From contig CAZBAJ010000004.1 in assembly GCA_964490125.1 (NCBI GenBank), positions 7,662 to 71,661 on the forward strand: a DNA stretch of 64,000 bases, read 5' to 3'. The translations under genes and the position numbers were made by a program. This document shows positions 24,363 through 54,024 of the stretch, in pieces. The notes beneath the pieces are model-generated. The model was not told the origin of the DNA, made no database searches, and saw only the letters and a list, made by a program, of their open reading frames with translations. Source of the DNA: an uncultured Candidatus Saccharibacteria bacterium. Lineage in GTDB: Bacteria > Patescibacteriota > WWE3 > UBA101185 > UBA10185. Numbering within the stretch: position 1 is the stretch's first letter; every line of letters starts with the position of its first letter.

Positions 24363-25235
24363 TTAGAGATGATCAGCGTCATTGCGATTCGCCGTAGGTG
24401 GAGAAGCAATTCCTTTCCACTTGTCGATTTTTGCATGATTACCAGAAATTAAAACTTCCGGCACCTTTAAGCCTTGCCACTCTTCCGGTCGACTATATTG
24501 TGGATGTTCCACTTGGTCAGGTCGACTTGGGTTAAATGATTCGTTAATAAGCGCCTCCGGATTGTCTATTGCCTCGGGAAGTAGCCGGACTACGCTTTCC
24601 ACAATCGCCATAGTGGCTACCTCGCCCCCGCTTAGTACATAGTTGCCAATGGATATTTCTTCCACGGTTATTTGTTTTAGCACACTGTCTGAATTTGTTG
24701 TTGAGTCGATTTTTTGGAATCCAGGCGCGCGACTTTTAAGACTGCATGCATTCTTAAAGTAGTCGATGACTCTCTGATCCACGCCTTCATACCGTCCACA
24801 AACAATAACTAAATGGTCCACTTGGGAAAATTCCGATGCTTTGTTTTGGTTATAAGTTTTTCCACGAGGGGTGAGAAAGACAACCCGCACACCGCCTTGT
24901 GGAGTACGGTCGTTTCGATCCGCCGTAGGCGGATAAGCAATCTGGATCTTAGTATCAACCTTGCGGTTCATGATTACTTGGGATTTATTTAGGGCAAATG
25001 TTATAGCATCATTAATCGGTTCGGGACGGAGAATCATCCCGGGACCACCACCGTAGGGTGGTGAATCCACCGTTCCCCGCTTGTCAATCGCAAAGTCGCG
25101 TAAGTTAATAAAGTCAATACGCACTAAACCCTTTTCCAGCGCACGACTAATTGGCAGATGTTGTAAATGGTTAGTAAAAATGTCTGAGAAAAGCGTAATG
25201 ACGGAAATGTGCAGTTTTGGCTTGGTATTAGGCAT
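24363..25235 (-). CDS. trmD: tRNA (guanine37-N1)-methyltransferase TrmD
   Basis: Has the SPOUT/TrmD motifs (HISVITLF, CGRYEGVDQRV, YTRPEEWQG). The start MPNTKPK was chosen 2 nt after the KH-protein stop. Confidence 0.8.
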   Translation of the reverse strand: MPNTKPKLHISVITLFSDIFTNHLQHLPISRALEKGLVRIDFINLRDFAIDKRGTVDSPPYGGGPGMILRPEPINDAITFALNKSQVIMNRKVDTKIQIAYPPTADRNDRTPQGGVRVVFLTPRGKTYNQNKASEFSQVDHLVIVCGRYEGVDQRVIDYFKNACSLKSRAPGFQKIDSTTNSDSVLKQITVEEISIGNYVLSGGEVATMAIVESVVRLLPEAIDNPEALINESFNPSRPDQVEHPQYSRPEEWQGLKVPEVLISGNHAKIDKWKGIASPPTANRNDADHL

Positions 25236-25596
25236 CGTTTGACGCGGGATCCTTGGGATCTGAATCCGATGGTTCTGATTCTGTTGGACTGTCGATTCCA
25301 TCACCTCGGTCATCTCTATTAGTTTCGAAAGTATCGTTTTTATCGCCAGCCGTCCTTGGTTGCCCGTAGTCAACCAGTTCAACATCCACCCATACATTTT
25401 CCTTTACCGCTTTAGCTTTTGCCAGTGAACGAATGGAATTAATGGTACGACCTTCTTTTCCTATAACCAAGCCCATATCGGAGGGGTCAACGGTAATTAA
25501 GTACCTAAAATTGCTCCCCTCTCCCGATTCTTCCACCGCCACATTTTGAGGATTTTTAACTAGCGAGGTCACTAAAAATTGGATAAAGTCTTTCAT
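25228..25596 (-). CDS. KH-domain RNA-binding protein (YlqC/UPF0109 family) with acidic C-terminal tail
   Basis: Contains VKNPQNVAVEE...VIGKEGRTINSIRSLAKA. Classic position between rpsP and trmD. Confidence 0.7.
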   Translation of the reverse strand: MKDFIQFLVTSLVKNPQNVAVEESGEGSNFRYLITVDPSDMGLVIGKEGRTINSIRSLAKAKAVKENVWVDVELVDYGQPRTAGDKNDTFETNRDDRGDGIDSPTESEPSDSDPKDPASNDA

Positions 25597-25970
25597 TCGG
25601 TCGACTCCTTGTCTGATTTGGTTTTCTCTGGATTATCTACCTCATCGCCCGATTTGTCCTCAACCGCATTATCCCCCTCTTTTGAAGCCTTTTCTGCCTT
25701 GGGATTGTATTTTACATATTTATAAGTTCCTGCCAGCATTTGTTTAACAGGTTCGGTAATTAGCGCGCCCTTTTTGACCCACTCGTCCAGTTTCTCCTTG
25801 TTAATAACCGCTTTACCGCCTATAGTCGATTTACCTGTTGTGGTGGGGTTAAAATCGCCCAGTAGGTCCAAAAATTTACCGTTGCGTTTACTTTTGGTTT
25901 GAGCAACCACCACTTTATACGCAGGTGCGTTCTTTTTTCCTATTTTTGCTAGTCTTATTTTTAGCGACAT
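25593..25970 (-). CDS. rpsP: 30S ribosomal protein S16
   Basis: Begins MSLKIRLAKIGKKNAPAYKVVVAQTKSKRNGKFLDLLGDFNP, with a C-terminal Lys/Glu-rich extension. Confidence 0.85.
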   Translation of the reverse strand: MSLKIRLAKIGKKNAPAYKVVVAQTKSKRNGKFLDLLGDFNPTTTGKSTIGGKAVINKEKLDEWVKKGALITEPVKQMLAGTYKYVKYNPKAEKASKEGDNAVEDKSGDEVDNPEKTKSDKESTE

Positions 25971-26843
25971 AATTTAAGTCAGTCTTTATAACAACTTGGA
26001 GATTTTACCAGCATATGAGGACAAAATCAATCCGGCGCAATAGATAGTACTGTTTGTCGGTGTAGGCTCTTTTTTTCGATAAGTCCCTAGACCTCATATT
26101 TAAACGAACAATAAACTACTTTTATTGAATCTAAGGCTTTTACTACGGCGTCAACTGTATGACAGTTGTGACATTGTTCAGTTATATTTATTTGCGAACT
26201 ATTTTTAAGCCTTTGTTAAAGCAAATACCTAGTTTTCTAAAATAATTAGTGAACTACCCTGGTTCGTAAATATCATAAGCTACGGTGGCTATAATTACGG
26301 CTACACCGGCATGCTTAACTTTCTTGGGTATTATTGTATAGTCTTGGTAATAATAAGTTGCCTCGGTGTCTGGGTGCCTAAATGTGTTTGGATATGTATT
26401 TATTTAGGTTTTTGTTGTATTTGAGGGTTTCAGTAAGTACTCGTTTGTTTATGTATTTAATTGTTTTAGTAGCAATGTATTAATTTAAGTTTTGTTTGTA
26501 CTGGGTGTTTGGGCAGGGATATTGCCATTTAGGTGTTTGAGTATGTATTTATGTGTCAGCGTTTTTAACTTGTATTGACAGCCTTAAAACTATGCTCCCA
26601 ATATAGTTCACTTATTTTTTTTTATGTTGTGGGTATTTTACTGTTATTAAAGGGTGAAAATAGTTCGCGTATTTTATCAAGTGAACTAACGGATATTTGT
26701 CATATAGTATTGGTTGTTACCACAAGATTAAATTGGCGAAATTCGACTACTAGTTCGTTTAAATACCTGCCCTTTGGGGCATACTTTGTTCTTTTGCTTA
26801 AACAAATAGTAGTTGCAAAATTTCATCTCTATTTAGATGACAT
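25971..26843. other. ~870-bp AT-rich non-coding gap with degenerate TG-rich direct repeats
   Basis: No credible ORF. Repeated units resemble tgtttggatatgtatttatttaggt, tttaggtgtttgagtatgtatttatgtg and agtgaacta. Confidence 0.5.
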
Positions 26844-27122
26844 CTAATTAATATCTAATACATCCGCACTATTTTGAGGTACAAACTCTTCTTGTAACTC
26901 CCTTATCGCGTTTGAGATTCTTGCAAATCCGGTTCTTAAACGATCGTCGTTTCGATAGATGAACCTAGCGCTAAGACCTGTGGAACTGTCGGCGTCTCTT
27001 TTTTCAAAATAAGCAGATTGTCCGCCATCAAGCCTCCAGTCGCCAACCAAACTATCACCGTATTCAGCAAGACCGTACATAGCCTCTTCGGACATTCTGG
27101 TGATTTGTCTTGATATTCGCAC
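26844..27122 (-). CDS. Hypothetical protein downstream of rnc (GTG start; frame open upstream to 27280)
   Basis: ORF track. No ATG: the in-frame upstream sequence stays open through a G9/C9 homopolymer at 27264-27272 without a canonical start. Confidence 0.35.
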   Translation of the reverse strand: MRISRQITRMSEEAMYGLAEYGDSLVGDWRLDGGQSAYFEKRDADSSTGLSARFIYRNDDRLRTGFARISNAIRELQEEFVPQNSADVLDIN

Positions 27123-27297
27123 TGCCAGTTCACGGCCTTGTGCCAGACCTTTTATTTCAATTACAGCTACTTCGTCGTCTAATCTAAGAACCTTGGCACC
27201 TTCAAGACTAATTTTCCCTGTTCCCAGAGGTAAAGATTCTAAATCGAAGTTACCACACTGTCTCCCCCCCCCGCCTTCTCAAAATCTCCTGTCGGGC

Positions 27298-28017
27298 TCA
27301 CAGTCCCCTCTCTAACTTCTCCAGCCCATTAGCTGCCGCTTCCATTTCCGCGCGCTGTTTGCTTTTACCAACGCCCTCGCCGTAAACTTTGTCGCCCACC
27401 TTAACCTGCACTTTAAAAGTTTTGTCGTGGTCCAGCCCCCAAGAGTCAACCAAAAAATATTCCGGGGTATATGCTAGCTTTTCCTGCGCCAACTCCTGAA
27501 ACTTGCTTTTGGCATCCTTGTATTTTTCATCCCGGACAATGTCGTCTATTTTGTACAAAAGTTCCCGTTCTAAAAATTGGCGACAAAATTCCAGTCCATT
27601 TAGTGTGTATAGCGCGCCTAAAACCGCCTCAAAAGTGTTGGCTAAAATGTATTCCCTGTCCCGTCCGCCAGTTGCTTCCTCACCTTTAGATAAAAGTAAA
27701 AACGCTCCGTAGCCTAGCCTTTTTGACTCGTTGGCAAGCGACGGAGTACAAACCATGGCAGAACGATAGTTTGTTAAATCGCCCTCCGGTAAGTCGGGAA
27801 ACTTTTTATATAAAAACTCGCTCGACAAAAGTTGCAAAACCGCGTCGCCCAAAAACTCCAAGCGCTCATTGGACTTAAGCCCGTTGCCGTTGTAACCGTG
27901 GTGTTCGTTTAGGTACGACCTGTGAGTAAAGGCAATTTCCAGCAAGCTTTTTGCGGTTTGGTCTGCTAACGGGGTTTGTAGAATTTTACCTAAAGCTTCA
28001 AAGTCCATAGTTTGCAT
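27298..28017 (-). CDS. rnc: Ribonuclease III
   Basis: Has the RNase III signature ERLEFLGDAVLQL and the C-terminal dsRBD (KQRAEMEAAANGLEKL). Confidence 0.85.
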   Translation of the reverse strand: MQTMDFEALGKILQTPLADQTAKSLLEIAFTHRSYLNEHHGYNGNGLKSNERLEFLGDAVLQLLSSEFLYKKFPDLPEGDLTNYRSAMVCTPSLANESKRLGYGAFLLLSKGEEATGGRDREYILANTFEAVLGALYTLNGLEFCRQFLERELLYKIDDIVRDEKYKDAKSKFQELAQEKLAYTPEYFLVDSWGLDHDKTFKVQVKVGDKVYGEGVGKSKQRAEMEAAANGLEKLERGL

Positions 28018-28035: not shown

Positions 28036-28275
28036 TTAGTCCAATTTTTCTTCCAGCGTATCCAAAAGATCTTTAACGCTTTCCAGCTCGCTTTGTTCGT
28101 CAAGCAAGTCCACCTTAAACAAGTCCTCCAGTTCCTCCAAAATTTCTGTAAGTTCCAGATCGCCCAAGTTTAAATCGTCGCCAAAAAACATGTCGTCCAA
28201 AACCTCCCGCGCTTCCACACCCGCCTTCTGTGCAATTACCTGCTTTACTTTTTCTTTAAAATTTGTTGGTTTCAT
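28036..28275 (-). CDS. Acyl-carrier-protein-like small acidic protein lacking the conserved Ser
   Basis: 79 aa, acidic, four-helix pattern. Sits at the syntenic acpP position (rpmF...acpP-rnc). The DSL motif is replaced by DDLNLGDLELTEIL, with no Ser. Confidence 0.4.
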   Translation of the reverse strand: MKPTNFKEKVKQVIAQKAGVEAREVLDDMFFGDDLNLGDLELTEILEELEDLFKVDLLDEQSELESVKDLLDTLEEKLD

Positions 28276-28754
28276 ATTTTTTCCTCTTTCTTAGTCGACA
28301 AAACTTCGCCAGTTTTTACATCGTCATTTACTTCCAGTTTGTCCTTTTTGGTCGTCAATTTTTCTGCCACACTGCCCAAAACGCCATTTACAAACTTGCC
28401 GGAGGCTTCTCCGCCAAATTCTTTGGCAAGTTCCACCGCCTCGTTTATGGCTACGCTGGAGTTTACGGTGTTGTTAATAGTTTCATACACCGCAATGCGA
28501 AGAATTGCAAGATCTATTTTAGCAATCCTGTCAAGAGGCCACTCGGGGGCGCAGTCGGTAATTACTTGGTCAATCCGAGTAATGTCGGCTTTTATCCCGT
28601 CAACCAGGCTTTTTAACATGTCTAGGTCTGCCTGGACGGTTTGGGGCATTTCTATCACCAGTTCTGCCGGCAAGTCGCCTGTACCTCCAAAAAACTCTGC
28701 GTAAAGTTTTAACAGAGCTAACTTTCTGGCTTGGTGGCGGGCGTCAGTTTTCAT
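28272..28754 (-). CDS. nusB: Transcription antitermination factor NusB
   Basis: Matches ARKLALLKLYAEFF...ILRIAVYE...AINEAVELAKEFGGEASGKFVNGVLG. Confidence 0.8.
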   Translation of the reverse strand: MKTDARHQARKLALLKLYAEFFGGTGDLPAELVIEMPQTVQADLDMLKSLVDGIKADITRIDQVITDCAPEWPLDRIAKIDLAILRIAVYETINNTVNSSVAINEAVELAKEFGGEASGKFVNGVLGSVAEKLTTKKDKLEVNDDVKTGEVLSTKKEEKI

Positions 28755-28796: not shown

Positions 28797-28946
28797 CTAC
28801 TTTTTGCACTCCGGACAGGCGTGGTGCGGTAGTTTTGCGCTTCCGCACGACTTGCATTTTACGGTGTTAATTGGCGAGCGCTTGTAGTGCGAATTTCTTT
28901 TAATTCTTACTTGGCTCTTGCTAGTCTTTCTTTTTGGTACTTGCAT
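28797..28946 (-). CDS. rpmF: 50S ribosomal protein L32
   Basis: Hand-translated 49-aa ORF MQVPKRKTSKSQVRIKRNSHYKRSPINTVKCKSCGSAKLPHHACPECKK with a Cys4 motif. Below the ORF-track cutoff. Confidence 0.8.
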   Translation of the reverse strand: MQVPKRKTSKSQVRIKRNSHYKRSPINTVKCKSCGSAKLPHHACPECKK

Positions 28947-28994
28947 GGGGTTATATTAGACGGGTTGGGGGCGGATTGTCAAATAAAATTGGGC

Positions 28995-29029: not shown

Positions 29030-29338
29030 ATGAGTAACAATGTTCCTGTAGCCTTTGATTGGGACAAGGGCAACCTTTTTAAGAATAAAGACAAACACAG
29101 TGTTACTAACAAGGAAGCCGAGGAGGTCTTTTTTAATAGACCAATCAACATTTACAGGGATGTTGATCACTCTCAAAAAGAGGAAAGGTATGTAGCTTTT
29201 GGGGTTACTGACAGTGGGAGAAGGTTATATTTGGTTTTTACTATAAGAGCAGATAAAGTAAGGGTAATTTCGGTTCGTGACCAGAGCAGAAAAGAAAGGA
29301 ACATCTATGAACAAGGCAAAAATGATTCCACAATTTAA
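29030..29338 (+). CDS. brnT: BrnT-family ribonuclease toxin (DUF497)
   Basis: Contains FDWDKGNLFKNKDKHSVTNKEAEEVF...GRRLYLVFTIRADKVRVISVRDQSRKERNIYEQG. Confidence 0.7.
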   Translation: MSNNVPVAFDWDKGNLFKNKDKHSVTNKEAEEVFFNRPINIYRDVDHSQKEERYVAFGVTDSGRRLYLVFTIRADKVRVISVRDQSRKERNIYEQGKNDSTI

Positions 29339-29585
29339 AAATGAGGATGAGGAGAGGGCGTTTTGGCTGGTTAATGATTTTTCTGACTATGTCGACCAAT
29401 TTGAACCCGTCGAGATGGATTTGTCAGAGTTAAAGCCTTCAACCGAATCTATATCCCTAAGATTACCTATTGCCCTGCTTGCCAGGTTAAAGGAATTAGC
29501 AAATTCTCGGGATGTACCATACCAGTCCTTAATGAAGGTGTTTTTGACAGACAGAGTTAAAGCCGAAGTTGCAAAAAGCTACTAA
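29307..29585 (+). CDS. brnA: BrnA antitoxin (RHH/CopG-like)
   Basis: Contains IPQFKNEDEERAFW...LKPSTESISLRLPIALLARLKELANSRDVPYQSLMKVFL. Overlaps the brnT 3' end. Confidence 0.7.
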   Translation: MNKAKMIPQFKNEDEERAFWLVNDFSDYVDQFEPVEMDLSELKPSTESISLRLPIALLARLKELANSRDVPYQSLMKVFLTDRVKAEVAKSY

Positions 29586-29594
29586 TTTTGGTTT

Positions 29595-30830
29595 TTAGAC
29601 AACCTTGTAAACGGGCAAAAGCTTTTTTGGAAAGCCGTGAATTTCCCAAAACGCCCTTAAATCCTCTTCCGTAAGGTTGGCAAGTCCTTTAGCCTTAACA
29701 ACTTTGGCAATTTTGCGCGCACCCTTCTCCAAAGTCACTTTATATTCCTTCTCGTGGTCAAAAATTACCTCCAAACAAGTCGTCACCCCGTCACTTAAAT
29801 GTGGATACGGTTTTGCATACATTTGGACGACTTGGTGACGCAGTTTTGGCAAAAGTTCCTGCGGATTAAGTCCCTGCGCGTACATGGAAGAAAGTAGCCT
29901 GCGGATAAGCGTTCTAATAATCCTGCCACGGTCGGCTTTGCTGGGGACTATTTTTTCTTCCGCCAAAATAAATAAGAGCGACTTAATGTGGTCGGCAATA
30001 ATTTTTATATTCTCGTTAAGCTCACCTGTTGGCGCAATCAAATCGACTAAAGGTTTTAGGTATGATGTCAAATAAATGCTTTCCACCCCTTCCACAATCT
30101 TGGCGCACCGTTCCGCGCCAATAACTACCTCGGTGGATTTGTTTACTAAGTCGCCCAAAACCGGCTCTTTAGAATAGTCAATAAAATGCTCGATAAACAA
30201 AATGTTACTAATTTCCAAAAACCGTCCGCATTTGCAAAACGGGTTGCAATTTGGGTTTTGACAGTTTTGATTGACGCCCTGATCGTAAAAGAATTCCACC
30301 TGCGGACCGCACAGCTTGATGTTGTCCCTAAGATCCGCACCCCCGCCCTGTTCCCACAAATTGGTTTCTTTGTTGCCAAAAACCACCTGACCGTTTGCTG
30401 TTTTGGTGACAAAGTCTTTAAGTTCGGTTTCTAGATCAATTTCCCTACCCGCAACAACATCTTTGTTAAACACCGTTGCCCAAATATGTTTTGGATTGAT
30501 TTTTAGGACTTTGGTTAGAAATTCCCAAGTTAGGTTTACGGTATTGACCTTGTTATATTCAACCACTTCAAACGCTCCCGCCATTTCAAAAAAGCTTAAG
30601 TGACTCTCGTCGCCCACTTTTTCAATGTCAAAATGCCTAACGCACGGTTGAATTAAAACCTCTTTGGACGGATTTGCTGGATTTTTTGACCGTATTCTGG
30701 GGTCGAGTTGGACGAGACCTGCGGACATATTGAAGGATGTTGGAAAGACGGGGTGTACAAGCGACTCGTGGTCGATTCTTTTAAAACCCGCCTTTATGAA
30801 AGTGTCAATCCATGCAATATTAATATCCAT
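29595..30830 (-). CDS. Alanyl-tRNA synthetase catalytic/tRNA-recognition domain-only homolog (411 aa)
   Basis: Aligns to the AlaRS N-terminal ~440 aa: FNMSAGL, QPCVRHFDIEKVGDESHLSFFEMAGAF, LCGPQVEFFYDQG, IKIIADHIKSLLFILAEEKIVPSKADRGRIIRTLIRR. There is no editing or C-Ala domain. Confidence 0.65.
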   Translation of the reverse strand: MDINIAWIDTFIKAGFKRIDHESLVHPVFPTSFNMSAGLVQLDPRIRSKNPANPSKEVLIQPCVRHFDIEKVGDESHLSFFEMAGAFEVVEYNKVNTVNLTWEFLTKVLKINPKHIWATVFNKDVVAGREIDLETELKDFVTKTANGQVVFGNKETNLWEQGGGADLRDNIKLCGPQVEFFYDQGVNQNCQNPNCNPFCKCGRFLEISNILFIEHFIDYSKEPVLGDLVNKSTEVVIGAERCAKIVEGVESIYLTSYLKPLVDLIAPTGELNENIKIIADHIKSLLFILAEEKIVPSKADRGRIIRTLIRRLLSSMYAQGLNPQELLPKLRHQVVQMYAKPYPHLSDGVTTCLEVIFDHEKEYKVTLEKGARKIAKVVKAKGLANLTEEDLRAFWEIHGFPKKLLPVYKVV

Positions 30831-30849: not shown

Positions 30850-31725
30850 ATGAGTCCACTAAGCTATCTAGGAGTCGTCGCATCCTTCGCAACTGTAGTT
30901 AGCTATATTGTCCGATATTCCTTGATAAGAGGCTTGAGCGACAGCGGGATCGATAGATATAGGCTGAACGCATATTACCGATTTTTCAGTTTACCTTTCC
31001 TAATTCTAATTATTTTATTGACTGGTGGGTTCTTTATACCGGAATACAAGCTGTTCTTGCTCCCGCTGTCTGTCAGCTTGCTTCTAAACATTGCCTACGG
31101 GGCGATTCAAGTAAAAATATACCAGAAATTCGACTTTTCTTTGATCACTATGTCGAGAACCTTAGATGTGCTGTTCTCCTTTGTTTTGGGTTTTATTTTC
31201 TTAGCGGAGAAAATATATATCCACCATGTTCTTGGTTTCTTGTTATTACTCGTTTCCTACATTGTGTTAGCTTGGGATAAGCGAGTCCGCGTTGATGTAA
31301 TTAAAGTGGCTGGATTGTTGGTGGTTTACAATTTAATCGGGAGTTTTACTTCCGTTGCAAACAAGTTTTCAATAAATAATTCAAGTCCGCAAATGTTTGC
31401 ATTGTTCCTTACTGTTCTATTAGTAGTTAGTAATTATGCAATTTCTTGGGTTAAGTCCGAAGGCATCGTTGCCGGGGTTCGCGATAAAAACTTTCCGTTC
31501 AATCGATTCTTCCTGATGGGTGCTGTAGTAGCTGGAGGTTTCCTTTGTATCAATTTTGCCTTTAAGTACCTTAACATAGGGGTTGTAACTGCTATTTTAG
31601 CCACCGAACCCTTTGTCGCGCTCATTGTGTCAAAATATAAATACAAAGAGGAAAATTTATTACCCAAACTTTTTGCTTCAATAATAGCTTTTGCAGGGGT
31701 TTTGATTATGGTTTTACCCAAATAA
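30850..31725 (+). CDS. Putative DMT-superfamily (EamA-like) membrane transporter
   Basis: About 10 predicted TM helices in two repeated halves. The start was chosen at the internal Met to avoid overlap with the convergent upstream gene. Confidence 0.4.
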   Translation: MSPLSYLGVVASFATVVSYIVRYSLIRGLSDSGIDRYRLNAYYRFFSLPFLILIILLTGGFFIPEYKLFLLPLSVSLLLNIAYGAIQVKIYQKFDFSLITMSRTLDVLFSFVLGFIFLAEKIYIHHVLGFLLLLVSYIVLAWDKRVRVDVIKVAGLLVVYNLIGSFTSVANKFSINNSSPQMFALFLTVLLVVSNYAISWVKSEGIVAGVRDKNFPFNRFFLMGAVVAGGFLCINFAFKYLNIGVVTAILATEPFVALIVSKYKYKEENLLPKLFASIIAFAGVLIMVLPK

Positions 31726-32287
31726 TCGTTAGTAAAGTTTTTCCATACCTGCGGGTTTCTAGAGTCACGGGGATTGATAAATCCTTGGGAAGTTCCACTT
31801 CCGCGCTTGCCAACCTGTCGCCCTGCTGATTTTGTCTGTCAGAAGAAGTCAATAAAAAGAAAACGCCGTTAGGGTTTAAACGCTCCATGGCAAGTTTAAT
31901 TAAGTGTTTTTGATTTGCGTCGGCATAGTAAGGGTCGGCAAAAATAATGTCGTACAAAGTTTCCGCGTTTGCCAGGTATTTTAACGCGTCGTCCCAAATG
32001 GGATTTGCTTTTTCTGTCAGCTGGCAGTTGTTAAGGTTTTTTTCTATGGTTTGGATGGACGACTTGGATTCGTCTACAAAATCGCAAAAAACGGCTCCCC
32101 TGCTTAAGGCTTCTATACCAAGGTTTCCGCTACCCGCATAAAGATCTAAACAGGTGGCGGACTCTGTTTTGTCGCCCAGAATAGAAAATATCGCCAGTTT
32201 GACGATTTCTTTTACCGCCGTAACCTTTTGGTTTTTTGGTAAAAGCAGTTTTTTTTCTTTAGCTGTTCCGGATGTAACGCGAAGCAT
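31706..32287 (-). CDS. rsmD: 16S rRNA (guanine966-N2)-methyltransferase RsmD
   Basis: Has LDLYAGSGNLGIEALSRGA and the DPPY-like motif ADPYY. Confidence 0.65.
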   Translation of the reverse strand: MLRVTSGTAKEKKLLLPKNQKVTAVKEIVKLAIFSILGDKTESATCLDLYAGSGNLGIEALSRGAVFCDFVDESKSSIQTIEKNLNNCQLTEKANPIWDDALKYLANAETLYDIIFADPYYADANQKHLIKLAMERLNPNGVFFLLTSSDRQNQQGDRLASAEVELPKDLSIPVTLETRRYGKTLLTIIWVKP

Positions 32288-32290
32288 GGC

Positions 32291-33244
32291 TTAAATCAGG
32301 CTCCCAACCAGTCTAACCATTTTTTCTTTGTCTTTTGGATTACTTTCCGAAATTAATATGGTTAAGGCAGTAAGTGCTGACGGTGTTAATTTGGCGGTGT
32401 TAAGAATTTTTGCTTGTTTTAAAAACCACACAAAAGCAAATGCGGCGCTTCTTTTATTGCCGTCCATAAACGGATGATCTTTAACCATAAAATACAAAAG
32501 GTTGGCGGATTTTTCTTCTACTGTAGGGTATAAGTCTTGACCCCCAAAGGACTGCATGACATTACCCACTATGCCAGAAAGTCTGCCTTGACTCTGTTCC
32601 GTCCCAAAAAGTTTGGTAGCCGTGCCTTTAGATAGTAAATCTGATTTTAAAGTTGCTAATTCTTGCTCGAGTTTTTGCGCGGTAATTTCCACAGACTTTT
32701 TAGTAGTTTTTTTAGTCTTTAACTGATCTTTGTCGTACGCCTCAAGAGAGACCCATGTGTCGGCGTAGGCGCTAATTAGTTCCATAACATCCTTGGTGTT
32801 TATAAGTTCGTTTCCAGGCAGGAGCAGTTTTATGTCTTCAACTGTTTTTAGGAATTGTTGATAGTTTTTTGCAATTAGCTTTTTGTTTATTGCATAACCC
32901 TGGGTAATATATTCTTTTAGGGTTTGGGTAGCCCACCGTCTAAAATCAATGGCTACCCTGGAATTTGTACGATATCCAACAGCCAGAATAAGGTCTAGTG
33001 AGTAGGCAAAAACGGGTTTAAAGGGGCTAGTAAAGTGCATTTTTTGCACATTACTCCTCCTTTTTACCTCCCGATCCTTAAAGATTTTGTTGATGTGTCT
33101 AGTCACAACCGTCCTCTCGATTCCAAAAAGTTCGGCTATTTGAGTTTGACTAGCCCAGATAGTTCCGCGTCTAGCGTCTCTTCTTAACTCTATTGCTCCG
33201 GATCTCGATTGATAAATAACTAGCTGATTATTTTTATTTGTCAT
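32291..33244 (-). CDS. RhuM-family N-terminal domain fused to a Fic/Doc domain protein
   Basis: The N-terminus is RhuM-like (virulence protein RhuM family). The C-terminal HPFMDGNKRSAAF motif matches the Doc-type Fic motif HxFx(D/N)GNKR. Confidence 0.6.
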   Translation of the reverse strand: MTNKNNQLVIYQSRSGAIELRRDARRGTIWASQTQIAELFGIERTVVTRHINKIFKDREVKRRSNVQKMHFTSPFKPVFAYSLDLILAVGYRTNSRVAIDFRRWATQTLKEYITQGYAINKKLIAKNYQQFLKTVEDIKLLLPGNELINTKDVMELISAYADTWVSLEAYDKDQLKTKKTTKKSVEITAQKLEQELATLKSDLLSKGTATKLFGTEQSQGRLSGIVGNVMQSFGGQDLYPTVEEKSANLLYFMVKDHPFMDGNKRSAAFAFVWFLKQAKILNTAKLTPSALTALTILISESNPKDKEKMVRLVGSLI

Positions 33245-33375
33245 TAAAAGATTATATTACCAAGAATAATTAATAGTCAATAGTATAATTGATAAATTTG
33301 TTAATGTTTATAATCCATTGCCCAGCAAGGCAATGGATTTCAGCAAACCATCAGCTGTTGCTGATGGTTGTTGCT

Positions 33376-35421
33376 TTAATTTTGACCCACATACTTACCC
33401 GATTCTTCTATTTTATCCTTCAACATCGGAAACTCATCAAGTCGCCCAAAATATTTTTGCGCTTGCGCTTTAGCCTTCTCCAAAAGTTCCACATCAAAAA
33501 TGCTGGCGACTTTAAAGTTTTTTACCCCGCTTTGCATTGTACCAAAAATGTCGCCCTGACCTCGCATTTTTAAATCCAGCTCGGCAAGTTCCAATCCGTC
33601 GTCGCAAGTTTCCATATATTTTAGCCGTTCACGCGATTTTTGTGAGCTTCCCGTATTTACCAAAAAACAATAACCTTGCTGACCAAGTCGACCTACTCGC
33701 CCCCTAAGTTGATGTAGCGACGCCAAACCGTACCTTTCTGCGCTTTCTATTACAATAATTGATGCTTCCGGTACATCTATACCCACCTCTATAACTGGCG
33801 TGGATACAAGGTAACGGATTTTTCCGGTTCTAAACTCTTCAATAGCGATTTCTTTTTCCTTAGCTTTAATTTTGCCGTGAATCAGGCGCATTTGGTCTGC
33901 GGGTAGTATTTTTTGCAGGTCTTTAAATTCTTTTTCCGCCGCTTTTACATTTTCAAAATCCTCGTTGGTCGACTGGTTAATAAACGGACACACAATAAAA
34001 GTTTGTTGATTTTGCGCCTTAATCCATTGGTACAATTTTTCTCGGCTATTTTCCTGTGCGACTTTTGTCTGGACTTTTCTGCCCTCTTTGGTGTGTGGTT
34101 TTAGGACAGAAATATCTAAATCCCCGTAAATTGTTAGCGACAGGGTTCTGGGGATTGGCGTTGCCGTCATAGAGAGCATGTTAGGTAAAATAGTTTCTTT
34201 TGACATATTAAGAAGCATGGTGCGCTGTTCTACCCCAAACCGATGTTGTTCGTCCACAATAACAAGTCCTAGCTTTTCTACTTGTGTGGTTGAGTACAAA
34301 AGCGCATGGGTTCCAATGGCAATGTCAAAATTTTGAGTAAGTTCTGTGTTCTTGGTATTTGTCTTTTGGATAAGCTTAATACCCGAAATAAAATTTTGAG
34401 TAAGAAAGTTGGTAAATGTTTCAAAATGCTGATTGGCTAAAATTTCCGTAGGTGCCATTAAAACTGTTTTGTAACGGTTTAAATACGCCAAGTATCCAGC
34501 TATAAGGCTAACTATGGTTTTTCCGCTTCCCACATCGCCTTCTAAAAGCCGATTCATTGGTGCTTCTTCCTGCAAGTCACTTACGATGCTATCCAGTGCT
34601 TGTTGTTGGGAGGTTGTAAGTTTAAACGGCAGACTGGCTATTAAGTCGTCAACCTGGTTCTTATATGGCGCGTATAGGATTTTGCACCCGTTTTTTTCTT
34701 TTTTCCACTCTTGTTTTCTCTTTTCGACTTTTAAAAGCTCCAGAAAGACCTCTTCAAAAGCAAAGCGATTTTTGGCAATTTCCGCGTCATCCAGACTTTG
34801 GGGAAAGTGGATTTTACTAAAAGCTTCGGCAATCTCCGGAAAGTTATTTTCAGTAAGTACTTCTGGGGGTAAAAACTCTAAAATTTTCGCTCCGGAATCG
34901 TCGCCCTGGAAACCCTTTACGATGTCGTTATTTCTAGACCGTAACCATTTAGAGGAAATTCCTGCCGTTTCGGGATAAATTGCCACAAGTCGTCCTGTTG
35001 CTAAGCCCCCCTCCCCTTCTTCAAATTCGGGCGAGAAAATACACTTTTTGTTTTTGTACAAAGTAACGCGCCCGCTAACCGTGTAGGTTTTATTTTCTCG
35101 GAGAACGGTTTTTAAGTAATGTTGGTTGAACCAAATTAAATTTAGGCTACCGGTTTCGTCCACAATTGTTGCAATGGTTAATCGCTTGCCGGTAGGTGTG
35201 GCAATATTTGTAACTTTTCCCAAAAAGCCCGTAATGGAAACAACATCGTTAACCACCGCATCGCCCACTTTAACCTTTTTAGAATAGTCCTCGTATCTAA
35301 AGGGAAAGTGGTAGAGCAGATCTCCAACCGTTTTAATTTCTAGCTTTTCCAACAGTTTTTCGTATTTAGGTCCGACTTTATTGAGAAATTTTACGGGTCT
35401 TTTAAAAAAATCACGGGTCAT
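33376..35421 (-). CDS. recG: ATP-dependent DNA helicase RecG
   Basis: Has the wedge domain, helicase motifs (GDVGSGKT, DEQHRFG, QLRGRVGR) and TRG; 681 aa. Confidence 0.8.
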   Translation of the reverse strand: MTRDFFKRPVKFLNKVGPKYEKLLEKLEIKTVGDLLYHFPFRYEDYSKKVKVGDAVVNDVVSITGFLGKVTNIATPTGKRLTIATIVDETGSLNLIWFNQHYLKTVLRENKTYTVSGRVTLYKNKKCIFSPEFEEGEGGLATGRLVAIYPETAGISSKWLRSRNNDIVKGFQGDDSGAKILEFLPPEVLTENNFPEIAEAFSKIHFPQSLDDAEIAKNRFAFEEVFLELLKVEKRKQEWKKEKNGCKILYAPYKNQVDDLIASLPFKLTTSQQQALDSIVSDLQEEAPMNRLLEGDVGSGKTIVSLIAGYLAYLNRYKTVLMAPTEILANQHFETFTNFLTQNFISGIKLIQKTNTKNTELTQNFDIAIGTHALLYSTTQVEKLGLVIVDEQHRFGVEQRTMLLNMSKETILPNMLSMTATPIPRTLSLTIYGDLDISVLKPHTKEGRKVQTKVAQENSREKLYQWIKAQNQQTFIVCPFINQSTNEDFENVKAAEKEFKDLQKILPADQMRLIHGKIKAKEKEIAIEEFRTGKIRYLVSTPVIEVGIDVPEASIIVIESAERYGLASLHQLRGRVGRLGQQGYCFLVNTGSSQKSRERLKYMETCDDGLELAELDLKMRGQGDIFGTMQSGVKNFKVASIFDVELLEKAKAQAQKYFGRLDEFPMLKDKIEESGKYVGQN

Positions 35422-53610: not shown

Positions 53611-54024
53611 TTATATCTCCTCTGCCTTTCCGTCCAGATGAATAAAATAAACCGTAACAAATTTTTCCGGATACAGTTCTTGCAACAGCCTTACTGCCTT
53701 TTTGCCCCATTCCCGATGTTCGTTTTTGTCGGCTTCAAGATCCAAACCTTGACGAATAGTGCCGTCCTGCGCGTAGCCCCCGCAATCCTGATGATCCAAA
53801 ATAATAATATTAGTTGGGTCGTGCAATTGGATAGAAAGATCAAGTTGACGGAGAAGCGACGCTTTGTGACTTTCTTCAATCGGTTTAACTAGATCGCGCG
53901 AACATCCCGCCAAAGATATAATGTCGCTTTCACCCAGTAGGTCGTGTGACTTTATAAAGTCCGCGTACGCTTTTTGCAACCTAAAGTCTATACAAGTAAT
54001 AATGCAATTTTTGGCTTTATGCAT
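53611..54024 (-). CDS. Hypothetical protein with beta-carbonic-anhydrase-like zinc-ligand motifs, inserted between atpA and atpG
   Basis: CIDFR (CxDxR) sits near the N-terminus and HQDCGG (HxDCG) about 68 aa later, matching the beta-CA zinc-site motifs. It is only 137 aa. The start abuts the atpG end. Confidence 0.35.
   Translation of the reverse strand: MHKAKNCIITCIDFRLQKAYADFIKSHDLLGESDIISLAGCSRDLVKPIEESHKASLLRQLDLSIQLHDPTNIIILDHQDCGGYAQDGTIRQGLDLEADKNEHREWGKKAVRLLQELYPEKFVTVYFIHLDGKAEEI

What the first reader, a model, noticed from the sequence alone, without database searches (positions are those of the whole stretch)
28036..28275. ACP-like protein at the syntenic acpP position but lacking the phosphopantetheine-attachment Ser
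A 79-aa acidic four-helix-like protein lies between nusB/rpmF and rnc, the classical acpP neighbourhood. Where the DSL motif should be it has GDDLNLGDLELTEIL, with no Ser in the region, so it could not be a canonical carrier. It may be a vestigial ACP repurposed, consistent with an organism lacking fatty-acid synthesis.
Basis: partly seen in the sequence, partly recalled or inferred. Interest (0 to 1): 0.5.

Follow-up and report, generated by a model that had tools for sequence, protein, structure and literature searches.

The report
Serine-less acyl carrier protein in Patescibacteria
A tiny-genome bacterium of the candidate phyla radiation (WWE3) keeps, at the ancestral acyl-carrier-protein locus, a well-conserved ACP look-alike that has lost the serine and the rest of the motif needed to carry fatty acids, so it probably serves some other, still unknown purpose.

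Summary
Window 28036-28275 (-) encodes a 79-aa, pI 4.1 protein that is a true ACP homologue (hhalign 99.6%; AF2 pLDDT 89; Foldseek TM ~0.8 to type II ACPs). Asp39 sits where the phosphopantetheine-carrying Ser should be, at the N-cap of helix II.

It is not a one-off. At least 176 sequences from Patescibacteria (WWE3, Curtissbacteria and others) share the motif DLN-x-x-[E/D]-x-E. The attachment position is Glu or Asp in 87% and Ser in about 1%. The AcpS-recognition Asp35 and Met44 are also lost, while helix II acidic residues are retained.

The gene always lies in recG-rsmD-(rpmF)-nusB-ACPlike-rnc-rpsP-khpA-trmD. This matches the B. subtilis recG…acpA-rnc…rpsP order without the fab and pls genes. 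It overlaps the nusB stop codon. dN/dS is about 0.1, and it is as conserved as its housekeeping neighbours, so it is not vestigial.

Best reading: a positional orthologue of acpP turned into a non-carrier, acidic protein-binding subunit. This parallels the Ser-less mitochondrial ACP of Plasmodium. The partner is unknown; RNase III or NusB is only a guess. I found no prior description. New variant of a known kind; interest about 0.6.

The parts
28036..28275 (-). ACP-like ORF, 79 aa, Ser-less (the finding)
   Evidence: ORF. ACP homology. ACP fold. 39 close homologues, all 79 aa.
28159..28161 (-). Codon GAT = Asp39, at the position of the phosphopantetheine-attachment Ser (Ser36 of mature E. coli ACP)
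   Evidence: Gapless phmmer alignments, MAFFT alignment with E. coli and B. subtilis ACP and hhalign. DSSP on the AF2 model starts helix II at residue 39.
28117..28161 (-). Helix II (residues 39-53, DLELTEILEELEDLF), the ACP 'recognition helix'. It is the best-conserved segment of the family.
   Evidence: AF2 helix H39-53. E44, I45, L46, E47, E48, L49 and E50 are invariant among WWE3 members. E41 and E50 are nearly invariant across the wider family.
28282..28287 (-). Shine-Dalgarno-like AGAGGA, 6 nt upstream of the ATG, inside the 3' end of nusB
   Evidence: Read directly from the sequence.
28272..28754 (-). nusB. Its TGA stop overlaps the ACP-like ATG (ATGA), which suggests translational coupling.
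   Evidence: Pfam NusB E=8e-28. An overlap of 4-20 nt is present in nine of the ten related loci with called genes (L017 has a 2-nt gap; no nusB was called in L018).
27298..28017 (-). rnc (RNase III), starting 18 nt after the ACP-like stop codon, in the same frame
   Evidence: Pfam Ribonucleas_3_3 plus dsrm. It is adjacent to the ACP-like gene in every related locus examined.
28797..28946 (-). rpmF (L32), probably the first gene of the rpmF-nusB-ACPlike-rnc unit
   Evidence: Pfam Ribosomal_L32p.
28953..28982 (-). Sigma-70-like promoter match (TTGACA-18-TAATAT) just upstream of rpmF
   Evidence: Consensus scan only; the number of such hits in the region is not above the shuffle expectation.
24363..25970 (-). 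rpsP, KH (KhpA-like) and trmD, the downstream part of the conserved block
   Evidence: Pfam. The same order is found in all related loci.
31706..35421 (-). recG (33376-35421) and rsmD-like methyltransferase (31706-32287), the upstream part of the conserved block. A Fic/RhuM gene is inserted between them.
   Evidence: Pfam. recG-rsmD precedes nusB in L001, L004-L007, L016, L017 and L019; L015 shows rsmD upstream without a called recG, and L018 a truncated recG.

Best explanation
The gene is the positional orthologue of the housekeeping acyl carrier protein gene (acpP/acpA) in a WWE3 (Patescibacteria) genome.

In this lineage, and in a large related family, the protein has lost what a 4'-phosphopantetheinyl transferase needs. 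Ser36 became Asp or Glu, Asp35 became Gly, Ser or Thr, Asp38 became Glu, and Met44 became Glu, Ser or Ala. It therefore cannot be converted to holo-ACP and cannot carry acyl chains.

It keeps the four-helix fold, the strong negative charge and, above all, the acidic face of helix II that ACPs use to dock onto partner proteins.

I infer that it works as a small acidic protein-binding subunit or regulator. Its job would be a fatty-acid-independent 'moonlighting' interaction of ACP that outlived the loss of fatty-acid synthesis. The usual Asp or Glu at the old attachment site would keep the negative charge that the phosphodiester of the prosthetic group used to supply.

It is made in fixed proportion with NusB and RNase III, through overlapping or abutting reading frames in one operon. 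The most likely partners are therefore basic proteins of the rRNA-processing and ribosome-biogenesis set encoded around it, with RNase III or NusB first.

Shown here: homology, fold, loss of the attachment motif, family-wide conservation, synteny and purifying selection.

Inferred: that it has a non-carrier role mediated by protein binding (about 0.8). Speculative: that the acidic residue mimics the phosphate, and that the partner is RNase III or NusB (about 0.2-0.25).
For: Homology and fold:
- NCBIfam ACP models E=1e-10; PDB ACPs E~4e-8; hhalign of the family against canonical ACPs 99.6%, E=9e-24.
- AF2 pLDDT 89.4 with four helices; all 50 listed Foldseek PDB hits (ranked by E-value) are ACP chains, nearly all type II FAS ACPs, with TM ~0.8.

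Loss of the carrier site:
- Asp39 aligns to the Ser.
- Among 176 family-like sequences the position is E in 112, D in 42 and S in only 2. Canonical-like sequences have S in 36 of 38.
- The most discriminating columns are Ec M44, S36, D35, S27 and D38.
- D35N alone stops AcpS from modifying E. coli ACP (10.1101/2025.01.28.635281).

Retained docking surface:
- Helix II is invariant in WWE3 members.
- The counterparts of Ec E41 and E47 are kept across the family.

Real, constrained gene:
- pS is 0.66-0.92 (saturated) against pN 0.14-0.27, giving dN/dS 0.06-0.13.
- Identity is 67-75%, the same range as nusB, rpsP, KH and trmD in the same genome pairs.
- The family has 486 proteins at E<=1e-6.

Positional orthology:
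- recG-rsmD-(rpmF)-nusB-ACPlike-rnc-rpsP-KH-trmD recurs in 12 loci, down to 30% identity.
- B. subtilis has an acpA-rnc-smc-ftsY operon (PMC4838370).
- E. coli has rpmF-plsX-fabHDG-acpP.

Coupling: the nusB/ACP-like overlap is 4-20 nt in nine of the ten related loci with called genes and in the window (2-nt gap in L017; no nusB called in L018), and the ACP-like/rnc spacing is -4 to +20 nt.

Precedent and context:
- Ser-less Plasmodium mACP is essential as a binding subunit of Isd11-Nfs1. Partner residues there contact the Ppant phosphate (10.1101/2021.04.13.439690).
- No FAS or PPTase gene lies in the 64-kb window.
- Patescibacteria generally lack fatty-acid synthesis (10.1101/465690; PMC10633639).
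Against: - No partner is identified. No natural fusion of the family to NusB, RNase III or anything else was found among the multidomain hits; all were tandem canonical ACPs.
- Gene adjacency to rnc is ancestral, as in Bacillus, so it does not by itself argue for a physical interaction.
- The 'phosphate mimic' idea is weakened because about 12% of family members have K, R, H, Q, A, N, P or S at the site.
- Absence of AcpS or Sfp, fab genes and CoA synthesis was not verified genome-wide.
- A cultured Saccharibacterium has a NUDIX gene in the nusB-rnc slot and no annotated ACP, so the function is not universal in the radiation.
- No expression or proteomic evidence was available.
Confidence: 0.65

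Rival explanations
1. Decaying remnant: a functionless relic of acpP that persists only because little time has passed since fatty-acid synthesis was lost.
For: The Ser and the DSL motif are gone, and the scores fall below curated ACP cut-offs. The attachment position tolerates several residues.
Against: The reading frame is intact and the length is constant (mostly 76-83 aa) in hundreds of sequences that have diverged to about 30% identity. Synonymous sites are saturated while dN/dS is about 0.1. Conservation equals that of nusB, rpsP and trmD. Helix II is invariant.
Confidence: 0.03
2. Still a carrier: the protein is modified at another residue (for example Ser38 in some sub-lineages, or Ser/Thr66) or by an unconventional transferase, and still shuttles scavenged acyl chains to PlsX- or PlsC-type enzymes.
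For: About a third of the wider family has Ser one position before the canonical site (position 38 is G26, S17, D6). Two members have Ser at the canonical site, for example P0123 at the same syntenic slot. Patescibacteria must still build membranes from scavenged lipids (10.1101/465690).
Against: The window protein and all WWE3 relatives have Gly38 and Asp or Glu39, with no Ser or Thr near the helix II N-terminus. Ser38 is not conserved. Ser/Thr66 corresponds to the conserved structural Thr64 of ordinary ACPs. Asp35, Asp38 and Met44 are all changed, and D35N alone blocks AcpS. P0123 also lacks Asp35 and Met44. No PPTase, fab or pls gene lies in the window or in any of the fetched flanks.
Confidence: 0.05
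3. Non-covalent lipid chaperone: the ACP hydrophobic pocket is reused to bind free fatty acids or lysolipids taken from the host, without a prosthetic group.
For: The core hydrophobic positions are retained. The organisms depend on scavenged lipids, and lysolipids are enriched in CPR cells (10.1101/465690).
Against: Pocket-lining small residues of canonical ACP are replaced by bulkier ones: Ec A34 becomes I, L or V, A68 becomes L in 151 of 176, and S27 becomes F or Y. This suggests a filled pocket rather than an open one. That reading is an inference from sequence, and the pocket roles of these residues come from my recollection of acyl-ACP structures. The operon context is entirely RNA and ribosome related.
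Confidence: 0.07
4. Mainly a cis-acting expression device: the short ORF is kept to couple translation or mRNA stability of rnc to nusB, as in the autoregulated acpA-rnc mRNA of Bacillus. The peptide itself would matter little.
For: The junctions with nusB and rnc overlap or abut. B. subtilis RNase III autoregulates the acpA-rnc mRNA (PMC4838370).
Against: Selection acts on the amino-acid sequence (dN/dS ~0.1 with saturated synonymous sites). The ACP fold and helix II are preserved across the family. A coupling device would not need this.
Confidence: 0.05

Closest known systems
Type II FAS acyl carrier protein AcpP/AcpA (Pfam PF00550 PP-binding; TIGR00517)
   Same: It shares the four-helix fold (TM ~0.8, rmsd 1.3-1.6 A), the length (79 aa) and the charge (net -15, pI ~4.1). 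It shares the conserved D31-L32 and the helix II glutamates (Ec E41, E47). It also shares the genomic slot, downstream of rpmF and immediately upstream of rnc, as in the B. subtilis acpA-rnc operon.
   Different: There is no attachment Ser (Asp or Glu instead). Asp35, Asp38 and Met44 of the PPTase and FAS-enzyme recognition set are changed. Scores fall below the curated family cut-offs. No fab or pls genes are nearby.
Ser-less mitochondrial ACP of Plasmodium and other Apicomplexa (mACP, PF3D7_1208300; Falekun et al., 10.1101/2021.04.13.439690)
   Same: It is an ACP homologue retained, and essential, after loss of FASII and of the PPTase in its compartment. The attachment Ser is replaced. It acts purely as a binding and stabilising subunit.
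   Different: mACP is eukaryotic and organellar. Its Ser became a hydrophobic Phe that inserts into the LYR protein Isd11. LYR proteins are eukaryote-specific (my own knowledge). Here the replacement is acidic (Glu or Asp), the organism is a bacterium and the partner is unknown. That paper reported no Ser-less ACP outside Apicomplexa and Vitrella.
Moonlighting interactions of holo-ACP: E. coli AcpP-MukB (PMC8602292), mitochondrial ACP-LYRM modules, Plasmodium apicoplast ACP-pyruvate kinase II (PMC13574338)
   Same: These show that ACP can be an obligate structural or regulatory subunit of machines unrelated to lipid synthesis, docking through its acidic surface.
   Different: From memory, apart from the apicoplast case, which documents, these interactions use or tolerate the 4'-phosphopantetheine arm. 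The apicoplast ACP-PKII association requires it (PMC13574338). The present protein cannot have that arm. MukB and LYRM proteins are not expected in Patescibacteria (my own knowledge, not tested).

Membership tests
Acyl carrier protein, type II FAS (PF00550 / TIGR00517 / NF002148) | Four-helix ACP fold with helix II starting at the attachment residue | tested here: met
   AF2 pLDDT 89.4, helices 6-18, 39-53, 58-63 and 67-78. All 50 listed Foldseek hits are ACP chains (mostly type II FAS ACPs), TM 0.73-0.86.
Acyl carrier protein, type II FAS (PF00550 / TIGR00517 / NF002148) | Score above the curated family thresholds | tested here: not met
   Pfam 17.8 bits against a gathering score of 20.8. NF002148 41.3 against 71, and TIGR00517 33 against 70.45. 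Homology is nevertheless significant (E=1e-10; hhalign 99.6%).
Acyl carrier protein, type II FAS (PF00550 / TIGR00517 / NF002148) | Conserved Ser of the D-S-L motif that receives 4'-phosphopantetheine | tested here: not met
   Asp39 aligns to the Ser. Across the family the position is E in 112, D in 42 and S in 2 of 176. Asp35 is also replaced by Gly.
Acyl carrier protein, type II FAS (PF00550 / TIGR00517 / NF002148) | Cognate phosphopantetheinyl transferase (AcpS or Sfp) and acyl-ACP-using enzymes in the genome | not testable with these tools
   Only 64 kb plus flanks of up to 10 kb could be read, and none was found there. Whole genomes could not be fetched.
Acyl carrier protein, type II FAS (PF00550 / TIGR00517 / NF002148) | Genomic position of acpP/acpA (after rpmF…fab genes, before rnc) | tested here: met
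   The window order is rpmF-nusB-ACPlike-rnc. Compare E. coli rpmF-plsX-fabHDG-acpP and B. subtilis acpA-rnc-smc-ftsY. The fab and pls genes themselves are absent.
Non-carrier (Ser-less) ACPs of the Plasmodium mACP type | ACP homologue lacking the attachment Ser, retained under selection | tested here: met
Non-carrier (Ser-less) ACPs of the Plasmodium mACP type | Host compartment or organism has lost FASII and the PPTase | not testable with these tools
   Consistent with the literature on Patescibacteria and with the window scan, but not verified genome-wide.
Non-carrier (Ser-less) ACPs of the Plasmodium mACP type | Hydrophobic replacement (Phe) that docks into the LYR protein Isd11 of the Nfs1 complex | tested here: not met
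   The replacement here is Asp or Glu. Common descent with mACP is not implied; the resemblance is convergent in logic only.

The most novel reading that the evidence does not exclude
A large part of the Patescibacteria radiation retains ACP solely for an essential function that does not involve fatty acids. In that reading it is a stoichiometric acidic subunit of the NusB/RNase III rRNA-transcription and processing machinery encoded around it. This would be a bacterial counterpart of the structural roles of mitochondrial ACP in ribosome assembly. It would mean that the widespread acpA-rnc and rpmF-acpP linkages in ordinary bacteria reflect an old functional tie between ACP and ribosome biogenesis.
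Probability: 0.15. Interest if true: 0.8.

Novelty: new variant of a known kind. Interest (0 to 1): 0.6.

Why it matters
ACP is among the most conserved bacterial proteins, and its Ser is treated as invariant. In model bacteria ACP binds dozens of proteins. Its non-lipid roles are hard to separate from its essential carrier role.

A whole bacterial lineage that keeps ACP under strong selection after deleting the carrier site is a natural separation-of-function allele. Whatever it binds is a candidate for the ancestral moonlighting function of ACP.

It also corrects annotation. Public sources call these proteins either 'acyl carrier protein' or 'phosphopantetheine-binding protein', which is misleading for metabolic reconstruction of CPR lipid metabolism, or 'hypothetical protein'.

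The only documented precedent, apicomplexan mitochondrial ACP, was reported as unique to that group (10.1101/2021.04.13.439690).

Tried and rejected
1. Natural domain fusions that might reveal a partner. All multidomain hits from the profile search were tandem canonical, Ser-bearing ACPs or unrelated. None was fused to NusB or RNase III.
2. The genome-contig scan with the family alignment. It still showed non-WWE3 members with Asp or Glu at the site.
3. Foldseek against afdb50, to get UniProt organism names. The library was not available.
4. Tn-seq essentiality data from the only genetically tractable Patescibacterium. Southlakia epibionticum has nusB-NUDIX-rnc and no annotated ACP, so it gives no information on this family.
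5. Literature searches for a prior description (ACP with Patescibacteria, CPR, Microgenomates, Saccharibacteria or WWE3; 'lacks the conserved serine'). Nothing relevant turned up. The library is partial, so this is not proof of novelty.
6. Ser-retaining member P0123 as evidence of a functional carrier. I rejected this because it also lacks Asp35 and Met44 and scores as a family member.
7. Modelling an ACP-like/RNase III complex.
8. Rfam on the window and on the odd 1.3-kb gap beside rnc. Only tRNA-Val was found.

Full report
**Observation**

An AGAGGA Shine-Dalgarno sits 6 nt upstream, and the start codon overlaps the nusB stop as ATGA. Pfam confirms the neighbours: rpmF (28797-28946), nusB (28272-28754) and rnc (27298-28017), followed by rpsP, a KhpA-type KH protein and trmD. 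The protein has 24 Asp+Glu against 9 Lys+Arg, giving net -15 and pI 4.1. That is indistinguishable from E. coli ACP.

**Is it an ACP, and what sits at the Ser position?**

- Pfam PP-binding matches residues 8-73 end to end, but at 17.8 bits it is under the 20.8 gathering score.
- NCBIfam ACP models give E=1e-10 to 1e-6, far under their cut-offs of about 70 bits.
- phmmer against PDB sequences finds only ACPs (best E=4e-8). The alignment through the motif is gapless: ffgDDLnlgDLELtEIL against sfkDDLgadSLDiaELV. Asp39 therefore lies on the attachment Ser.
- An AF2 model built on 25 family members has pLDDT 89.4 and four helices, with helix II beginning at residue 39.
- All 50 listed Foldseek PDB hits are ACP chains, nearly all type II FAS ACPs, at TM ~0.8 and rmsd 1.3-1.6 A.
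- A profile-profile comparison of 53 diverse family members against 25 canonical ACPs gives 99.6% probability and E=9e-24. It aligns the family consensus DLNi~ElE to DLgADSLD.

**A family, not an accident**

The word-indexed search found 39 close relatives (58-100% identity). All but three full-length hits are 79 aa (one is 82 aa, two are 86 aa), plus one 54-aa fragment, and the named ones come from WWE3 or 'Patescibacteria group' bins. Position 39 is Asp or Glu in the 28 relatives aligned, and ELTEILEELE is essentially invariant.

A profile search of 1.84 billion cluster representatives gave 2099 hits. The top short hits split cleanly into two motif classes:
- DDLN[ILV][GSD][ED][LMI]E, the Ser-less class;
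- DLGADSLD, the canonical class.

A second indexed search with the diverse alignment returned 486 proteins at E<=1e-6. I scored every short protein in hand against family and canonical HMMs:

| Class | n | Residue at the attachment position |
|---|---|---|
| Family-like | 176 | E 112, D 42, A 4, Q 4, K 4, P 3, N 2, R 2, H 1, S 2 |
| Canonical-like | 38 | S 36 |

The columns that best separate the two classes, in mature E. coli numbering, are:
- M44 becomes E, S or A;
- S36 becomes E or D;
- D35 becomes G, S or T;
- S27 becomes F or Y;
- D38 becomes E;
- D56 becomes L, V or I;
- A34 becomes I, L or V;
- A68 becomes L;
- G33 becomes N.

So the whole D-S-L-D recognition motif is rewritten, not only the Ser. 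D35N alone is enough to stop AcpS from modifying E. coli ACP (10.1101/2025.01.28.635281). By contrast, the counterparts of Ec D31, L32, E41 and E47 are invariant or nearly so.

Source names place members in WWE3, Curtissbacteria (Microgenomates), 'Parcubacteria' and unclassified Patescibacteria. They are annotated inconsistently as 'acyl carrier protein', 'phosphopantetheine-binding protein' or 'hypothetical protein'.

**Genomic context**

I examined twelve related loci, down to about 30% identity and including contigs of 0.77-1.1 Mb. The gene always sits in recG-rsmD-(rpmF)-nusB-ACPlike-rnc-rpsP-KH-trmD, followed by a type IV pilus cluster. nusB overlaps the ACP-like start by 4-20 nt in the window and in nine of the ten related loci with called genes; L017 has a 2-nt gap and no nusB was called in L018. 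rnc begins from -4 to +20 nt after its stop.

This is the gene order around acpA in B. subtilis with the lipid genes and smc-ftsY-ffh removed. Only the acpA-rnc-smc-ftsY operon, including a bicistronic acpA-rnc mRNA, is documented here (PMC4838370); the rest of the Bacillus order (recG upstream, rpsP downstream) is from my own recollection. E. coli shows the other half of the linkage, yceD-rpmF-plsX-fabHDG-acpP-fabF. The protein is therefore best described as the positional orthologue of acpP/acpA.

One member, P0123 (MCX6783552.1), keeps a Ser at the site in the same slot. It too lacks Asp35 and Met44 and scores as a family member. I read it as tolerated variation rather than a working carrier.

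**Selection**

Between the window gene and five orthologues, synonymous differences are saturated (pS 0.66-0.92) while pN is 0.14-0.27. Where dS can be computed, dN/dS is 0.06-0.13. Protein identity (67-75%) falls in the same range as nusB (60-74%), rpsP (55-71%), KH (63-74%), trmD (56-67%) and recG (58-78%) in the same genome pairs. The gene is not vestigial.

**Lipid-synthesis context**

I scanned nearly all non-overlapping ORFs of 90 aa or more in the 64-kb window against Pfam. The window encodes gyrase, an H+-pyrophosphatase, type IV pilus genes, several aminoacyl-tRNA synthetases, PBP1, an F-type ATP synthase, ClpP and trigger factor. It has no Fab, Pls, AcpS/Sfp or CoA-pathway gene. The flanks of the related loci have none either.

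This is consistent with published statements that CPR bacteria, or Patescibacteria, lack known fatty-acid and lipid synthesis and ACP-processing enzymes (10.1101/465690; PMC10633639). It is not a genome-wide test.

**Mechanism**

What is shown:
- an ACP-fold protein that cannot be phosphopantetheinylated by known chemistry;
- retention at the ancestral locus;
- expression coupled to nusB and rnc;
- strong constraint, especially on the helix II docking face.

What I infer is that it survives as a protein-binding subunit or regulator, preserving a non-lipid interaction of ACP. The preference for Glu or Asp at the old attachment site (87%) fits conservation of the negative charge that the phosphodiester provided. 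In the human Isd11-ACP complex an Arg contacts exactly those phosphate oxygens (10.1101/2021.04.13.439690). The minority of K, R, H, Q, A, N and P variants shows the charge is not obligatory. Bulkier residues at Ec A34, A68 and S27 suggest a filled acyl pocket, which argues against a lipid-binding role. That last point is sequence-level inference.

The partner is unknown. RNase III and NusB are the first candidates only because of operon coupling, and the acp-rnc adjacency is ancestral. I give that specific proposal about 0.2-0.25.

**Comparison with known systems**

The protein belongs to the ACP superfamily by homology and fold. It fails the defining functional feature of the ACP family (the Ser of DSL) and the curated score thresholds, so it should not be filed as a working ACP.

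The closest functional analogue is the Ser-to-Phe mitochondrial ACP of Plasmodium and other Apicomplexa. That protein is essential after loss of FASII as a stabilising subunit of Isd11-Nfs1. Its authors found no Ser-less ACP outside Apicomplexa and Vitrella. The present case differs in three ways: it is bacterial, the replacement is acidic rather than hydrophobic, and LYR-type partners are not expected (my own knowledge). The resemblance is one of logic, not descent.

Cultured Saccharibacteria appear to lack the gene. Southlakia has a NUDIX gene between nusB and rnc. The family is therefore widespread in the radiation but not universal.

**Verdict**

This is a new variant of a known kind: a conserved, lineage-wide, non-carrier bacterial ACP. 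I did not find it described in the searchable literature. Interest is about 0.6. It would be higher if a defined partner in rRNA processing or ribosome biogenesis were demonstrated.

Noticed in passing
window 25971-27297: About 1.3 kb between rpsP and rnc has no convincing ORF. The best is a 92-aa ORF at 26844-27122 (-) with no Pfam hit. There is no Rfam hit even at E<=1. Most syntenic loci have under 150 nt here (up to 250 nt where a small unannotated ORF intervenes, as in L018); L007 has about 1.1 kb with two small opposite-strand ORFs. It may be a degraded insertion or an undescribed RNA.
   Followed up: partly
window 29595-30830 (-): A 411-aa ORF matches only the catalytic core of alanyl-tRNA synthetase (PF01411 positions 3-400 of 552). 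It lacks the usual C-terminal tRNA-binding and editing regions. It could be a split or truncated AlaRS, and it is absent from this position in the syntenic loci.
   Followed up: no
window 29030-29585 (+) and 32291-33244 (-): A BrnT/BrnA-type toxin-antitoxin pair and a Fic/RhuM-family gene are inserted into the otherwise conserved recG-rsmD-rpmF-nusB backbone, relative to L001 and L004-L007.
   Followed up: no
window 24363-25397 (-): The trmD ORF is 344 aa, against 201-261 aa in relatives. Its Pfam match is broken into three stretches, and the ORF overlaps the upstream KH gene by 170 nt. This suggests an internal insertion and probably a later true start.
   Followed up: no
window 53611-54024 (-): A small putative carbonic-anhydrase-like gene (PF20393 Pro_CA_2) sits inside the F-type ATP synthase operon, between the alpha and gamma subunit genes.
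   Followed up: no
L019 6001-6240 (P0123, MCX6783552.1, GCA_026396615.1): A family member at the same nusB-rnc slot retains Ser at the attachment position (DLNIHSLEIVEIL) but lacks Asp35 and Met44. In this locus recG and rsmD are called as one fused 853-aa gene.
   Followed up: partly
protein P0126 (133 aa): A Ser-less family member carries an insertion of about 55 aa that is extremely Asp/Glu-rich, between the helix II/III region and helix IV.
   Followed up: no
Southlakia epibionticum SEML1_0591-0595 (PMC10633639 supplement): In this cultured Saccharibacterium the slot between nusB and rnc holds a NUDIX-domain gene instead of the ACP-like gene. The NUDIX gene was scored essential or growth-defective by Tn-seq, and no 'acyl carrier' annotation appears in the tables.
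   Followed up: partly
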